A DNA stretch of 64,000 bases from Eledone cirrhosa (GCA_964016885.1 OZ024746.1:2108001-2172000), one strand, 5' to 3'; shown: positions 1,690 through 52,118, counted from the first letter of the stretch. Numbers and translations are program-made. Notes: generated by a model from the sequence alone, not told the origin.

Positions 1690-1820
1690 TCTTGTCTCAT
1701 GACCCTGTAATAAACAGGCTAATCTCCAGAGTAACAAGATTCACTATTTAACCTTAATAAAATGAATATTAAAACTCCATTTCGGTATTGAGTACTCTTT
1801 TCTCTCAGCCATCAACCACA
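1690..1820 (+). mobile_element. Penelope-pLTR-like fragment with a decayed type I hammerhead (1690-1739)
   Basis: UCUUGU-CUcAUGA-c-CCUGU/ACAGG-c-uAAu-CUC ca GAG-UA-ACAAGA: stems intact, core mutated. Same family as 23186-23313; ends near a (TA)n run. Confidence 0.7.
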
Positions 1821-1845
1821 CACGGATGGATATATATATATATAT

Positions 1846-2027
1846 ATAGGAGAAAGTATGACCCCGACGGCAGAGCTCAAGCCGTTTCGACGGCTATTTC
1901 TGGACTAGTTCAGAAATAGCCGTCGAAACGGTCATACTTTCTCCTATTACCCACTCTACTACCCTAAGTATTGAGTACTCTGGTGCATTATGGACCATCT
2001 GGTTCCTTACCACAACTCCTTCGTTAT
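1846..2027. mobile_element. Palindromic Penelope-pLTR-like fragment; related copy at 17330-17400
   Basis: Inverted repeats 1846-1863/1930-1947 and 1882-1902/1911-1931. Carries the hammerhead 3' half GAAACGGUC. Flanked by (TA)n on both sides. Confidence 0.55.
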
Positions 2028-2275
2028 ATATATATATATATACAAGTGTAGTTTAAAAAGATATCTAATATTTAATTTACAATTCACAAAAAAACCCAAG
2101 GACTGAGGTGAAAATAAATTTTACATGTAGTTAAACTCTTTATCATCGATGATCAAACAAAATGAAATTGGTTTAAAGTGAGAAAATAAAACATCGATAC
2201 TTCTGGGTAATTTGTTGTCAATGAAGAAAGCAGTTACGTCCCTTGTCTACCTTAGGAACAAATATATATTGTAAG

Positions 2276-2413
2276 ACAACGGTATGGATGACCAAAGAGT
2301 AATAAGAGGAGAAATCGCATGAAATATATAAACACTTATATATATATTGTACACACACAACGGTATGGATGACTCAAGAGTAATACGATGAAAAATTGCA
2401 CGAAATATATAAA
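2276..2413. repeat. Imperfect ~57-bp direct repeat, two copies
   Basis: ACAACGGTATGGATGAC..AAGAGTAATA.GA.GA.AAAT.GCA.GAAATATATAAA at ~2276 and ~2357. Confidence 0.75.
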
Positions 2414-3376
2414 TAAATAGTCGCCTGTTTAGAATAAGAATACGATGAGTCTTTTTCTATGGAAGACGCCTCGATCCATAACATTTCTGATTATATCAGG
2501 GAAATCTTTTAGCGTCAACTAAATTACTACAGATTATTAAAAAAAAATTTACTATTTAAAATAAATATTTATTTTCAATATTTCCGATAATAAAGTTTTG
2601 AGATTAATGTGGATGGTCGGCTACGCAGTTGATTGACTGCGCTATCCTTCACCACAGCTGCCAACCACGCTAGATTTTTGAAATCCAATAACCTACACAA
2701 CAAATCCACATCGTTTGGATAAAAATACCACCGGAAGCTGATCAAAAGCACACAAGGGACATACTAAATATAATGTGCGAATTGTACGAATTTCTTTTGG
2801 TGGGGGCGCTAATGATCCCTCTCAAATGTTCACATTTTTCGTATACCCATTTTAAAACCGGATTTAACGCTAGTAACGAGAGTATATAATTAAAAGCATA
2901 GATATTACAAATCGAAACGAATAAGAACTACTAACACAGAGGTATAAAAGTGAATAATTTACTAGAGGGGGAAAGAGCTTCCATGTTAGAGAAGCTTAGT
3001 TCGTACCATGATACCAAGGAGCCAAGAAGACAAATTGGTCACTAAGTGAGGGATTTAATTTTCACTTTCACTGGAGCCAAGCAATGGAATTTAAAACTAT
3101 AGAAATCTAGACAAACATAAATATCTATAAAACGATTCTTCCTACTAAAAATAAACATAAATACCTACAATTCTAACTGAAAATATAATATATATTTAAC
3201 ATTTCACTTAATGTACAGAAAATATCTGAAAATTATACTTAAAATAGCGAGCAATCATAAATGATAAACAATTTAATAATACTTACATAAAAAAGTTGTT
3301 AACTATTTCATACTAAAATATCCAATAAAAATAACGACACACTTCACACAGAGCGTGAAATATATAAAAAGGATAC

Positions 3377-48104: not shown

Positions 48105-48975
48105 CATCTTCATCATTTTATGTCCTCTTTCCACACTGACACAGCTTATCATGGTTGGAGTGACCTCATGTCATTCATACATTCCATATTTGGCATGGTT
48201 TCTAGGATTATGCCCTTCCTAATGTAAACTATCTTACAGGGTATACTGGGTGCATTTTTTTTTGTGACACCAGCACTAACCCTTTACAGAGTGGACTGAG
48301 TGCATTTTATTGGGGCATCAACACTAACCCATTACAAGGTGTATAAGGTGCATTTTATCATGGCATTGGCACTAGAGGTTGCCAGACTGAAGAAGAGTCC
48401 TCTCCAACCCTACACTGTCTCCATTCAAGTGTGAAACACTATAGACCACGTCTATTTTTAGTATTACAGTGCTTGTAAACAGGTTTCTTTTTGTATCATG
48501 GTATATCACCAATTAGCTCAGTCCTGTGTTATCCTCTTTGTTAGGTTCAATTTCTTGAGGTCGTTCTTCATCTTCTCTGTTTTCCCCCTTCTATATGTTC
48601 CATCCACCTCAAGTACTCTGCACTTTTTTTTATGTAACTCTTACTCTCCTTATATATACCCACACCAGCACAAATGTCTCTCTTATATGTTAAATTGAAT
48701 TCTTATACTCAACTTTTCTCTGTTTACTTGTGCTCTGCTCTTGATGTATATGAACATTACAAATCCAGCAAATTATGCATGCCTCATTTCTTTTTAACCA
48801 CCACAGATGTGCACTCAAGGCCCATGTCTCATTGCTATACATCATATAATTTGCCTTTCACTTTGTTGCCATCAGAGGTAACAGCTTTTTGAACTATTTC
48901 AACCCTATTCTTACTCTGGCTATAACACTTTCAGTACATCCACCTCTACTACTAATGTTATCACCTAGATAGCAC
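48105..48975 (-). mobile_element. Decayed RTE 3' region
   Basis: Minus-strand YLGDNISSRGGCTESVIARVRIG and GRGKTEKMKND-like remnants, ending in an (ATC)n-type tail. Confidence 0.6.
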
Positions 48976-50520
48976 AATGTAATTGTGTAAGAGCAATCAT
49001 ATAGAGACCTATGAATGATATATTTCAATCTGTGGTAATCATATTTTAGAAGTTTTAGATACATAATTTTATTTTAGTAATGTTTTCACAGTGGGATTCA
49101 AAGCATGGTTGCAAAGCTTGTGCTTATATTTGTGTGATAGAAACTGTGCTTGATGTTGAGGTTTTGTAACGAGCAAATGTAATAAGCATAGAAGACTTCA
49201 TGCAATGTAGGTAGGTCATATAGTTCATATGTAAGATAAAAGAATTCCAAATTATCTACTCTGTGGAGAATTTTGTTTAGAGAAAAGCCTCCTTACCCAC
49301 AGACAAAGCTAAGATACAAAAAATACTTTATATTGAGCGAACCTTAAGGATTTCTACTATAGGCACAAGGCCAGCGATTTTTGGGAGGGGAAAGTTGATT
49401 AAATCGACCCCTGTAAAGATGATAGGCAAAATTAACCTCTGCGGAATTTGAACATAGATCGTAAAGGAGTGTATTCCTATACTGCAAAGCATGGTATCCA
49501 ACACTGTATTCATATCTGGAGAGGGTTGACCTCCATCAGGTTTTAAAATGCCATAGAAACGCCTTATGTCAATATGGCGTCCCTATGATTCTCTTGGGAG
49601 TTATAGGACCATGCATGCAATAAGTTGGGGGAAAATACAATTGGTAGGGTATTGTTGAGAAGTATACTCAATGTATCCAAGGCATTTTGAAGAGAATCAC
49701 ATTGAAAATTAAAACAAGGTCCAAAGAAAGGAAACCCCATAAATATTAATAACCCCTCCAGATGCTCAACTTGTATTCAAGTGAAATTGAGAAGGGATGT
49801 TTGTGTGATAGTTCTGGTCATACCCATTATTGAATTGACTTAGATTATATGTGTGTATAGGTAAGCATATCTATATATATGATGACGGACTTTCTCGCCA
49901 AAAATGATGTATAAACATCTAGTTAGTCAATCAACTAAATGACCTACTCCTTGAATTAGTGCACAAAGTGACCGATTATTTAGTCATATGTACTTTTAAC
50001 TCCTAATGTCCTATACCGAATGAAACCACATTAGCAAGACATCCTTGAAAAACCCAAAACAACACTATGAATGCATCACCTTAAAATTAAAGTATTTACT
50101 TTAAATTTTCACATCTATTAATAAAGATAAAACCATAAACTTTTAAATTAATCAAGTCATGTTTGGATATTTTCTGCTAAATCATTACAAGATACAATTC
50201 TCATGTATTGGTGTGACTGTGACAAGGCTAGACTTTTGAATAACACATACAATCCATTCAACAGGCCCCCACACAATTTAATCATTTTCACTCACAAGAC
50301 TTGGGTCAAACCAACTATATATATATATATATATATATATATATAGTTGGTTTGACCCTCTTTCTGCCTTTGTCACTCTAAATATAAATTATAGCCTTAA
50401 AGAATTAGCTTTTAATGAATTCCCTTTTCTTTCAACCAATGACCTCCACCCATCCCACTCCCCACCCTCTCCTACCACCTGAAAAGATATAAATACTACA
50501 ACATTTATTTTTGGAAAGCC

Positions 50521-50571
50521 AGATTTCTGATGATTTCTAAAGAATGAAACAGTTCTAGTCCTGTAGAATCT
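50521..50571 (+). ncRNA. Type I hammerhead ribozyme with intact core
   Basis: AGAUUU-CUGAUGA-uUUC(uaaa)GAAu-GAAA-CAG(uucuaguc)CUG-UA^-GAAUCU; all three stems can form in a monomer. Confidence 0.82.
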
Positions 50572-51994
50572 CATCTATATTAAAACTATATATATATATA
50601 TAAAGAGGGTCAAAACAACTATATATATATATATATAAAGAGGGTCAAACCAACTATATATATATATAAAGAAAAAATTCTAATGATGGATGAAGATTTC
50701 TATGTAAAAGACAAATTATAAAGCTATTGAAGTTAGAATTAAGGTAACCACTTGAGATATACATATATATATATATATCGTGTGTGTGTATGAATATACA
50801 CACATACATACATATATATATATATATATATATTCATACACACACACATATATGTATATTCATACACACACATACATATATATATATATATATGTGTGTA
50901 TATTCATACACACACACACATATATGTATATTCAGACACACAGATACATACATATATGTGTGTATGTGTTAGAATTGTACTGGAAATAAAAGAAAAAAAA
51001 ATCAATAGGTTTAACACAGCAATTAATCAAAAACAAACAAAAAATTAAGATAAAAAAAACTATGTATGCAACACTATTGAATCAATAAGACTTCTTTCAT
51101 TCTTGCACACCAGCTTTATTCTTTCTGTGTAAAATTAACATATGAAGAGGGAAGGTGGGTGGCTTATAGATGGAGGAGGGCAGTGAAAGTACCACTGATG
51201 AATCAATAAAAATCTCTCACATTGGTTGGTGTGCCACAACTGGTTTCTGCCAGTCATATTACAGAAATGAAAAGAAGGAAGTATATAAAAATGAATAAAT
51301 GCATAATTTTGTTTCTTTCTTTCTGTTTTTTTAAAAAGAAACAAAACATTATTTCAGTAAGCGAAGCTAGTTTACCTTATCTAGTCATATTAGAGGTTTC
51401 ACTTTGTCACCTCTCATACAGCATGTTCTCTTGCTACTACTACTATCATCATCACCACCACCACTACTACTGCTACGTCCACCACCTACACTGTTACTAC
51501 TACTGTTTCTTTCCAATGATAGATTTGTATCTTTACTATATAGAACCTCTATAAAAACACACCCCATTGCTCAATTTTATCATATATTATAGCACATGCC
51601 ATAAGTAAATAAAGTAAGTTGTCTTTGAAAGGCCTTATTATTATGCAAAAATACGTAAAAATATTTTGGCAACAAAGAATTATTTACCACACACACATAT
51701 ATATAATGTATTACCCTTACTCTAAAGTTATGTTGGTACCACAAAACATTCAGCCCACACTGTAAAGTAGTCGTGTAGGTGTGTTACAACAAAAATCACC
51801 CAGTCCACACTGTAAAGTGGTCGCGTAGGAGACACGGTAAAAAACACCCAACACACACTGAGGTTGGCATTAGGAAGGGCATTCAGCCAGAAACTTACCT
51901 CAAATGGGACAAAACCGCTTAACCCATGCTATCGTGGAAGATAGACGTTAAACAATGATGATGACATATACACACACATACGTATGTGTGTGTA

Positions 51995-52118
51995 TCCCGG
52001 GTTCGATCGGGGGTAACCACAGTAAGTAAGGTACTCAATACAGAGAGTATAAATATTTAATATAGAAATGGCTTCTACAGGACTAGAACTGTTTTATTCG
52101 AAGGAAATCATCAGGCTT
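51995..52118 (-). mobile_element. pLTR-like fragment with an inactivated hammerhead (52070-52114, G12A)
   Basis: CUGAUGA-uUUC(cuuc)GAAu-aAAA-CAG(uucuaguc)CUG-UA-GAAGCC; same family as 50521; abuts (TA)n. Confidence 0.7.

What the first reader, a model, noticed from the sequence alone, without database searches (positions are those of the whole stretch)
1690..52118. Recurring back-to-back hammerhead ribozyme cassettes from at least five unrelated families in one locus
Seen: about ten hammerhead motifs (1690, 8555, 9094, 13037, 13232, 21020, 23134, 23186, 26922, 50521, 52070) with family-specific stems around the same core. Nearly all lie next to (TA)n and none is attached to a recognisable Penelope ORF. 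Every inverted pair has the same geometry, with the minus-strand ribozyme on the left and the plus-strand one on the right. Established: Penelope-like elements carry type I hammerheads, often with palindromic stem III, in pLTRs that can be inverted, and retrozymes are ORF-less ribozyme retroelements. Inference: these may be ORF-less ambisense foldback units. On either strand the antisense arm is transcribed first and could sequester the ribozyme, a self-muting design that would let them persist in a host intron. They could instead be plain by-products of Penelope integration.
Basis: partly seen in the sequence, partly recalled or inferred. Interest (0 to 1): 0.9.

Follow-up and report, generated by a model that had tools for sequence, protein, structure and literature searches.

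The report
Penelope retroelement back-to-back hammerhead stubs
The self-cutting RNA motifs are really there, but they are the ends of five common families of Penelope-like jumping genes, and the back-to-back pairs are most likely ordinary landing scars made anew at each insertion rather than a purpose-built self-silencing unit.

Summary
Eleven minimal type I hammerhead motifs from five families sit at the stated places; 8 keep the catalytic core, 3 are broken. Elsewhere in this octopus-like genome each family joins a Penelope-like (PLE) reverse transcriptase/GIY-YIG ORF (four Hydra-like, one Neptune-like; one intact). The minus-left/plus-right geometry is the published head-to-head PLE insertion: partners lie on the 5' side in 65 of 120 loci against 3 on the 3' side, spacing runs from 44 bp to 8 kb, and 51 of 54 pairs have one short and one tailed arm. 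The window's two tested junctions are unique. One junction recurs in 563 loci, but across subfamilies, so it is likely a hot spot, not a mobile unit. An intact, unpaired sense copy sits in the host intron, so muting is not required. New detail: short arms end at predicted transcription starts, and one such cassette heads a 377-kb array of 78-bp hammerhead units elsewhere in the genome. No RNA data; cleavage untested. The scan reached the same reading before on other octopus-like DNA.

The parts
1668..1828 (+). Family A solo 3' end (pLTR plus tail); hammerhead 1691-1738 with two core defects
8513..8696 (-). Family B left arm; hammerhead 8555-8601, core position 4 changed, one stem II mismatch
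8699..9195 (+). Family B right arm with about 380 bases of 3' UTR; hammerhead 9094-9140; shares private changes with the left arm (98% against at most 96% to the other 39 scored copies)
12998..13173 (-). Family C short arm (-124 to about +51 from the predicted cut site); hammerhead 13043-13109
13174..13183 (.). Family C head-to-head junction, unique in the genome, next to the CATATG hot spot
13184..13438 (+). Family C long arm with 85-base tail (-123 to +138); intact hammerhead 13244-13310 with palindromic stem III
20950..21075 (+). Decayed family D insertion: hammerhead 21020-21070 with broken core, preceded by an inverted tail-like remnant at about 20950-20995 (read by eye against 51995-52040)
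23105..23182 (-). Family A short arm; intact hammerhead 23135-23182
23184..23314 (+). Family A long arm with tail; hammerhead 23187-23232, core intact, stems I and III damaged; junction unique in the genome
26729..27021 (-). Family E solo copy from the shared 5' end (YY1-like motif) through the tail; hammerhead 26922-26962
50440..50586 (+). Family D (subfamily D2) solo copy, sense to the host gene, TATA-like box at 50488-50495, intact hammerhead 50521-50571 with compensatory stem I
51995..52120 (-). Family D (subfamily D1) solo copy with tail; hammerhead 52070-52120 with broken GAAA and truncated stem I
4199..4835 (+). Host context: first coding exon of an RSBN1L-like gene, splice donor after 4835
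60426..61855 (+). Host context: next detected exon of the RSBN1L-like gene, phase-compatible with the first; ten of the eleven motifs lie between the two

Best explanation
The motifs are the minimal hammerheads in the terminal repeats (pLTRs) of five endonuclease-bearing Penelope-like retrotransposon families, and each back-to-back cassette is most likely a dead-end insertion made anew when two 5'-truncated cDNA copies of the element's end are joined head to head in a TA microsatellite. Shown: every family has copies joined to an RT/GIY-YIG ORF; outer ends are fixed (one short end, one tailed end) while inner ends vary; the two arms of one insertion nearly always carry the same subfamily variants. 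From the literature: PLE protein nicks and extends both target strands and starts reverse transcription at two internal sites that bound the tail, and it uses uncut RNA. Inferred: because each cDNA is anchored to the target by the element's 3' end, the 5' sides must meet in the middle, which forces minus-left/plus-right. Inferred: the shortest arms arise when copying starts in the upstream pLTR of the transcript and runs off its 5' end, a predicted start site 10 to 125 bases before the ribozyme, so such cassettes lack the upstream TATA-like box and would not be transcribed on their own. Whether the second arm comes from a second priming event or from fold-back copying of the first cDNA is not settled. 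Antisense masking of the ribozyme in read-through RNA is a predicted side effect, not a design.
For: ORF links: C intact pLTR-798 aa ORF-pLTR-tail in L245 and inverted arm-pLTR-ORF-pLTR in L226; E ORF fragment between two inverted hammerheads in L141; B ORF 1.5 kb upstream in L143, with 3' UTR shared by other copies up to about -1190; D arms abut the same ORF in L373 and L374, and L372 holds it too; A decayed ORF on the same strand upstream in L378, L380, L397. Geometry: 23 minus-plus against 2 plus-minus neighbours within 8 kb among the first 100 family C matches, spacings 44-7869; inverted partner on the 5' side in 65 of 120 arm-selected loci, on the 3' side in 3. One tail only in 51 of 54 C pairs, both in 3; identity within pairs 0.991 against 0.943 between. 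One young subfamily gives spacings from 56 to 6088. Junctions differ in 13 of 13 A, 12 of 12 E and 10 of 10 B rows (a few rows are the two views of one pair). 5' ends pile up: A 26 of 30 at -8 to +3, E 14 of 30 at -60 to -66 from the core, at TATA/initiator-like or YY1-like motifs. Literature: PMC8557442, PMC3846280, PMC4209133, PMC11167929, PMC2377424.
Against: An exact palindromic junction recurs in 563 loci of family C and one D junction in 7 of 17 distinct-or-repeated junction types, 7 of 23 paired loci (my query favoured it), which a mobile palindrome would also give. No intact ORF was found for A, B, D or E in the loci fetched, and A and D short copies far outnumber long ones (first-look candidates 2340 against 223 and 1600 against 463; not copy numbers), so ORF-less source loci could supply templates. 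In 13 of 54 C pairs the partner was not the best match. Tails of A, C and D (55-85 bases) are longer than the published 30-40. Start sites are inferred from motifs; no RNA data were available.
Confidence: 0.82

Rival explanations
1. The cassettes are still made anew at each insertion, but their templates are mostly short ORF-less RNAs from non-autonomous pLTR copies, mobilised in trans by PLE protein (SINE-like or retrozyme-like parasites).
For: Short copies dominate A and D; solo pLTRs keep the TATA-like box (50521); a 78-bp ORF-less hammerhead array of subfamily D2 exists; the 2026 preprint derives retrozymes from pLTRs.
Against: Within single subfamilies short and kilobase-long ORF-containing arms occur side by side; full-length transcripts with an upstream pLTR explain short arms without extra sources.
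Confidence: 0.1
2. One reading: the palindrome is an ORF-less ambisense unit that moves as a whole, and its antisense arm is a design that mutes the ribozyme so that it can persist in introns.
For: 563 loci share one perfect junction; three of 15 sampled such loci are nearly identical (L248, L251, L259); whole-cassette folds pair all 7 core bases on both strands for A, B and C.
Against: Window A and C junctions are single-copy; the 15 sampled hot-spot loci span several subfamilies, each with one short and one tailed arm; the subfamily of L248 also makes many other spacings; short cassettes lack the TATA-like box; an intact unpaired sense copy sits in the same intron; family F palindromes have the geometry without a complete core; many arms are cut inside stem I or the core; cores decay in genomic copies (all positions intact in 35 of 76 A, 36 of 47 B, 176 of 231 C, 44 of 100 D, 44 of 65 E arms).
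Confidence: 0.05
3. The host keeps these motifs as intronic RNA-processing switches of the RSBN1L-like gene.
For: Ten of eleven lie between two exons of one gene; four are clean.
Against: They belong to families with thousands of dispersed copies (10,620 exact matches for C); both orientations occur; three are broken; density fits a repeat-rich intron.
Confidence: 0.02
4. Chance matches to a short motif in AT-rich DNA.
For: Rfam finds nothing at gathering score; single-motif folds have weak z-scores, -1.31 to +0.82.
Against: 0 descriptor hits in 100 shuffles; same core with five unrelated sets of stems; compensatory stem I changes between D subfamilies.
Confidence: 0.01

Closest known systems
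Endonuclease-bearing PLE insertions with inverted 5'-truncated copy and one-sided tail (PMC8557442 Fig. 2 legend and text; PMC3846280; PMC2377424)
   Same: Head-to-head inverted pLTRs, heavy 5' truncation, tail on one end, palindromes at the junction, (TA)n targets.
   Different: Tails here are 55-85 bases in A, C and D rather than 30-40; many insertions are near-symmetric palindromes with arms up to 2.9 kb; inner ends pile up at family-specific points.
Minimal hammerheads of PLEs (Cervera and de la Pena 2014, PMC4209133)
   Same: Short stem I, weak or palindromic stem III predicted to need dimers, location in pLTRs; the paper already reports dual motifs 100-700 bp apart on opposite strands and links them to truncated PLEs.
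   Different: These are new sequence families; B has C at core position 4; D has a 4-bp stem III with an 8-base loop.
Hydra clade of PLEs, including Hydra-1_Obim of Octopus bimaculoides (PMC8557442 section 11 and supplement)
   Same: RW(K/I/R), DKT, CxCX5C linker, no CCHH, hammerhead present, (TA)n insertion (families B, C, D; remnants in A).
   Different: The published Hydra-1_Obim hammerhead row does not match A-E by eye; family C units are 3.3-3.7 kb with a 1-kb 3' UTR, above the usual 3 kb.
Poseidon element of Anolis, in vitro (PMC11167929)
   Same: Two internal reverse-transcription starts bounding the tail, both strands cut and extended, ribozyme dispensable for insertion.
   Different: Another clade; its hammerhead overlaps the ORF start, whereas in family C the ORF starts about 215 bases after the cut site.
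Metazoan non-LTR retrozymes (PMC7229834; bioRxiv 10.64898/2026.07.22.740005)
   Same: ORF-less, hammerhead-bearing, derived from pLTRs; the related 78-bp array on C28 is a head-to-tail repeat with a motif in each unit.
   Different: The window's cassettes are inverted pairs, not tandem repeats; the C28 unit (78 bp) is shorter than 170-400 nt and its about 4,800 units exceed the 300 reported as maximum in the preprint.

Membership tests
Minimal type I hammerhead | Core CUGANGA, GAAA and UH cleavage triplet | tested here: met
   Family majority sequences carry it (B with C at position 4); 8 of 11 window copies keep the catalytic positions, 3 do not.
Minimal type I hammerhead | Three helices with covarying stems | tested here: met
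   Five unrelated stem sets around one core; two compensatory double changes in stem I between D1 and D2 (39 copies with the D2 pair, 10 with the commonest D1 pair, of 70 distinct copies). Within-family counts are blurred by misregistered copies and are not used.
Minimal type I hammerhead | Palindromic stem III that allows dimers | tested here: inconclusive
   Perfect 8-base palindromes in B and C; imperfect in A, D and E.
Minimal type I hammerhead | Self-cleavage | not testable with these tools
   No assay; arm starts at the cut site in 4 of the first 100 matches are not clearly above background.
Endonuclease-bearing PLE | Single ORF with RT and C-terminal GIY-YIG | tested here: met
   Intact 798-aa ORF for C, nearest Atlas clusters at 0.95-0.98 carry HTH_animal, GIY-YIG or RVT_1 in part of their members; weak Pfam GIY-YIG for the D ORF, E 0.00094, below cut-off, and nothing for the C ORF; E ORF 58% identical to an RT-domain protein. 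Broken or partial ORFs for A, B, D, E.
Endonuclease-bearing PLE | pLTRs flanking the ORF, each with the hammerhead | tested here: met
   Family C: L226, L244, L245, L297. Not seen for A, B, D, E in the loci fetched.
Endonuclease-bearing PLE | Inverted 5'-truncated copy at the 5' end and one-sided tail | tested here: met
Hydra clade | RWK-like motif, DKT, CxCX5C linker, no CCHH, hammerhead, (TA)n target | tested here: met
   Read in the ORFs of C, B and D; only the linker and C-terminal remnants for A. Definition.
Hydra clade | Generally shorter than 3 kb | tested here: not met
   Family C unit 3334-3709 bases; the paper states this as a tendency.
Hydra clade / Neptune clade | Placement in the RT tree | not tested
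Neptune-like PLE (family E) | CX2-5CxxC linker and CCHH around GIY-YIG | tested here: met
   Read in L141 and L144 ORFs; Nematis shares the linker, so the clade name is tentative.
Non-LTR retrozyme | Head-to-tail repeats of 170-400 nt, each with a hammerhead | tested here: not met
   No tandem hammerhead repeat in the window. The related C28 array is tandem but 78 bp.
Non-LTR retrozyme | Circular RNA | not testable with these tools
   No RNA holder listed.
   Window junctions unique; the 563-locus junction spans subfamilies that also make other junctions.

The most novel reading that the evidence does not exclude
The short arms are run-off cDNAs of the PLE 5' leader, akin to retroviral strong-stop DNA, so tens of thousands of cassettes map each family's transcription start and both reverse-transcription starts in vivo; and the same start-to-short-end unit, from one back-to-back cassette of the window's D2 subfamily, seeded a 377-kb array of about 4,800 hammerhead units of 78 bp, a PLE end caught turning into a ribozyme satellite or the smallest retrozyme.
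Probability: 0.45. Interest if true: 0.55.

Novelty: new member of a known kind. Interest (0 to 1): 0.3.

Why it matters
As filed, it is ordinary: known ribozyme, known carriers, known arrangement, in families not yet named. Its value is as a data set. How PLEs make inverted ends is stated as an open question (PMC8557442 section 15), and this genome offers more than ten thousand young insertions of one family with an intact source element, fixed outer ends and mappable inner ends. That allows a direct test of two-strand priming against fold-back copying, and of whether the ribozyme ever cuts the template. The 78-bp array would give a concrete route from a PLE end to a hammerhead satellite.

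Tried and rejected
Rfam: nothing at gathering score; the E-value scan was swamped by microRNA models on TA repeats. The repeat finder was swamped by TA tracts; self-BLAST with masking replaced it. The DNA search for family C returned no candidates (the tool skips very common words); an exact pattern then gave 10,620 matches. Pfam missed the seven PLE fragments and the intact C ORF; PDB sequence search found nothing. Single-motif folding was uninformative. A search with L144:5330-5600 hit another family's UTR and did not bear on D. Long A loci did not show an ORF by themselves; a second walk did. Test for templates cut by the ribozyme: 4 of the first 100 matches start 0-5 bases after the predicted cut (L348, L353, L362, L424; 74 arms measured, the rest taken as longer because they match the pattern or were measured earlier) against 19 measured starts in the 100 bases before it; about 2 expected, so inconclusive. 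Within-family covariation by fixed-length patterns was noisy and is not used. No RNA holder was listed; contigs of two runs of unknown kind laid on the C element were deepest at the pLTR and thinned towards the ORF start, which is no copy number and no expression evidence. Literature searches for a foldback or ambisense hammerhead unit and for octopus or cephalopod hammerheads listed no such description in the held library; subscription papers and the preprint's supplements could not be seen.
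Full report
Setting. The window is G000:C6:2108001-2172000 of a 3.0-Gb animal genome, 31% G+C and rich in TA tracts. The closest named protein to one of its retroelements is from Octopus vulgaris, so I call it octopus-like (inference). 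Mollusc RSBN1L-like proteins match an exon at 4199-4696 and one at about 60,800-61,852 (5 of 6 queried proteins hit both); a donor after 4835 and an acceptor before 60426 are phase-compatible. Ten of the eleven motifs lie between them; small exons in between are not excluded. The motif at 1691 lies left of a SET/NAP-like exon on the minus strand.

Observation. All eleven sites have the type I hammerhead layout. A strict descriptor gave 3 perfect hits against 0 in each of 100 local shuffles. Rfam gave none at gathering score. Four copies are clean (13244, 23135, 26922, 50521), four keep the catalytic core with a changed position 4 or damaged stems (8555, 9094, 13043, 23187), and three have lost conserved core bases (1691, 21020, 52070). 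All are within 144 bases of a (TA)4+ run. Three inverted pairs are minus-left/plus-right; five motifs have no hammerhead partner. The fold is supported by one core in five unrelated sets of stems and by two compensatory changes in stem I between subfamilies D1 and D2.

Carriers. Each family is abundant: first-look candidates 2340 (A), 1718 (B), 1600 (D), 998 (E) (not copy numbers) and 10,620 exact 34-base matches for C. Each leads to a PLE ORF. C: L245 is pLTR, 798-codon ORF, pLTR, tail; L226 is inverted arm, pLTR, ORF, pLTR. E: in L141 a 1.9-kb RT-linker-GIY-YIG fragment lies between a minus hammerhead on the left and a plus one on the right. B: an ORF in pieces ends about 1.5 kb upstream in L143, and other copies share the 3' UTR up to about -1190; this link rests on one locus plus an inverted ORF piece in L057. 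D: plus arms abut the same 5'-truncated ORF in L373 and L374, and L372 holds it too. A: decayed RT and endonuclease remnants lie on the same strand about 1.5 kb upstream in L378, L380 and L397. B, C and D show the Hydra-clade marks listed in PMC8557442 section 11: RW motif, DKT, CxCX5C, no CCHH; A remnants show the linker. E has the CX2-5CxxC linker and CCHH (Neptune-like). No tree was built.

Geometry. Among the first 100 listed C matches, neighbours within 8 kb were minus-plus 23 times, plus-minus twice and plus-plus three times; spacings ran from 44 to 7869. In 120 loci chosen by one arm only (30 each for A, B, D, E, the best-scoring of 40 scored, own copies and three doubly sampled pairs included), an inverted partner lay on the 5' side in 65 and on the 3' side in 3. 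In 54 distinct C pairs (taken from the lists, 15 of them chosen by the hot-spot junction, pairs closer than 150 bases left out), 51 had a tail on exactly one arm and 3 on both; outer ends sit near +53 and +138 from the predicted cut. Arms of one pair were 0.991 identical against 0.943 between pairs, 28 were identical, and the partner was the best match in 41. Several insertions are near-symmetric palindromes with 1.3-2.9 kb arms that both contain ORF sequence (L292-L295, L300). This is the published PLE pattern: an inverted 5'-truncated copy and a one-sided tail (PMC8557442, passages), head-to-head as the most frequent form with palindromes at the junction (PMC3846280, passages), and dual minimal hammerheads 100-700 bp apart on opposite strands (PMC4209133, part 1 of 4).

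Mobile unit or made anew? The window's C and A junctions occur once each; B was not searched. Junction coordinates all differed in A, B and E. Against this, one perfect C junction centred on CATATG occurs in 563 loci, and one D junction in 7 of 23 paired loci, which my query favoured. Fifteen sampled hot-spot loci belong to several subfamilies, each with both arms matching and one tail. The subfamily of three near-identical ones has 1,901 matches, with pair spacings from 56 to 6088 in the first 100 and ORF sequence in the long ones. A self-complementary hexamer at the place where cDNAs end explains a recurrent junction without a mobile palindrome (inference).

Why arms are short. Inner ends pile up at family-specific points. 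In A, 26 of 30 arms start at -8 to +3 from the core; long copies have a TATA-like box 30 bases before an initiator-like TTAGT at -9. In D all 30 start at -16 to +1; long copies have TATAAATA about 27 bases before CAGT at -10. In E, 14 of 30 start at -60 to -66, at a motif that I recall as the YY1 site near the start of human L1 (recalled; one search was a search listing only). In C they cluster at -110 to -137 from the cut. The Penelope promoter lies in the pLTR (PMC2377424, passages), and an Anolis PLE nicks and extends both strands, starts at two internal sites bounding the tail and uses uncut RNA (PMC11167929, parts 1-2 of 4). I infer that copying that starts in the upstream pLTR runs off the transcript's 5' end, and that two such cDNAs, anchored by their element 3' ends, meet head to head. 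Fold-back copying of one cDNA, as proposed in PMC3846280, fits the arm identity equally well.

Self-muting. Whole-cassette folds pair all seven core bases of the downstream motif on both strands for A, B and C, so masking in read-through RNA is plausible. It is not needed: 50521 is intact, unpaired and sense to the host gene; many arms are truncated inside stem I or the core; cores decay in genomic copies; and family F (window 1849-2021, and dozens of copies met by chance in the fetched loci, 87 rows) forms the same palindromes with the junction inside loop II, so neither arm has a full core. Minimal hammerheads are reported to cut poorly in vitro (PMC4209133) or only with protein (PMC11167929).

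An unexpected relative. A D2 pattern gave 3400 forward against 1158 reverse matches. The excess is a head-to-tail array of 78-bp units on C28, from about 30,496,770 to 30,873,700: all 13 probes between the ends were array, so about 377 kb or 4,800 units if unbroken; 74 of 101 units read have an intact core. It begins with a TA tract, a tailed minus arm, a junction and a plus arm, i.e. a back-to-back cassette whose short arm is then repeated. An 8-unit copy lies on C1 beside a minus-strand family C end. Described retrozyme units are 170-400 nt (PMC7229834, passages) and the largest array in the 2026 preprint has 300 units (part 1 of 5 and passages; supplements closed). Rolling-circle copying and plain satellite expansion both fit; no RNA evidence exists here.

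Verdict. Real motifs, known kind. The supplement of PMC8557442 already lists a Hydra family with a hammerhead from Octopus bimaculoides; its motif row does not match A-E by eye, so these are likely new members. Earlier notes of this scan on other octopus-like DNA reached the same reading; I had written mine before seeing them. Best explanation 0.82; interest 0.3.

Noticed in passing
G000:C28:30,496,770-30,873,700 (L489-L502, L509); small copy G000:C1:350,200,280-350,200,850 (L508): Head-to-tail array of 78-bp units, each a complete D2-type hammerhead, about 377 kb, headed by a back-to-back cassette; 74 of 101 units read keep the core. The 8-unit copy on C1 adjoins a minus-strand family C end.
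   Followed up: partly
window 1849-2021 (tail-only piece at 17318-17394): Sixth, very abundant PLE-type family F: back-to-back palindrome whose junction falls in loop II, so both arms lack the first half of the core; long copies (L277, L301, L317, L318) show a core that reads as the U3-A8 variant.
   Followed up: partly
L348, L353, L362, L424: Four family C arms start 0-5 bases after the predicted cut site; one (L353/L241) runs on through the whole ORF, as expected of a template cut by the ribozyme. Not clearly above background.
   Followed up: partly
L292-L295, L300: Near-symmetric family C palindromes with arms of 1.3-2.9 kb whose two lengths differ by less than 200 bases, suggesting coupled termination.
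   Followed up: no
window 50300-50361 and 50587-50668: A 13-base inverted repeat around a TA tract, and three copies of a related 35-bp unit right after the 50521 copy; possibly ends of another TA-targeting element.
   Followed up: no
window 8061-8380, 9271-9605, 13549-13883, 17633-17967: Four copies of a 335-bp repeat at 88-94% identity, each beside a long TA array; likely a SINE.
   Followed up: no
window 11,450-12,495 (+) and 29,607-31,312 (-): A LINE-type RT fragment (Pfam RVT_1, E 1.2e-9) and a broken hAT-like transposase (weak DUF4371 match) inside the host intron.
   Followed up: no
window 3344-3679 (-) and 4154-4858 (+): SET/NAP-like and RSBN1L-like genes start head to head within about 500 bases, a likely shared promoter.
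   Followed up: no
families A, D and F tails (window 23275-23290, 52030-52045, 1970-1985): Unrelated families share a short motif (GTATTGAGTAC) in their tails, a candidate protein-binding or priming signal.
   Followed up: no
window 41381-42035 and 45186-45348: Young minisatellites: 72-bp unit, 9 copies at 99%; 23-bp unit, 7 copies at 100%.
   Followed up: no
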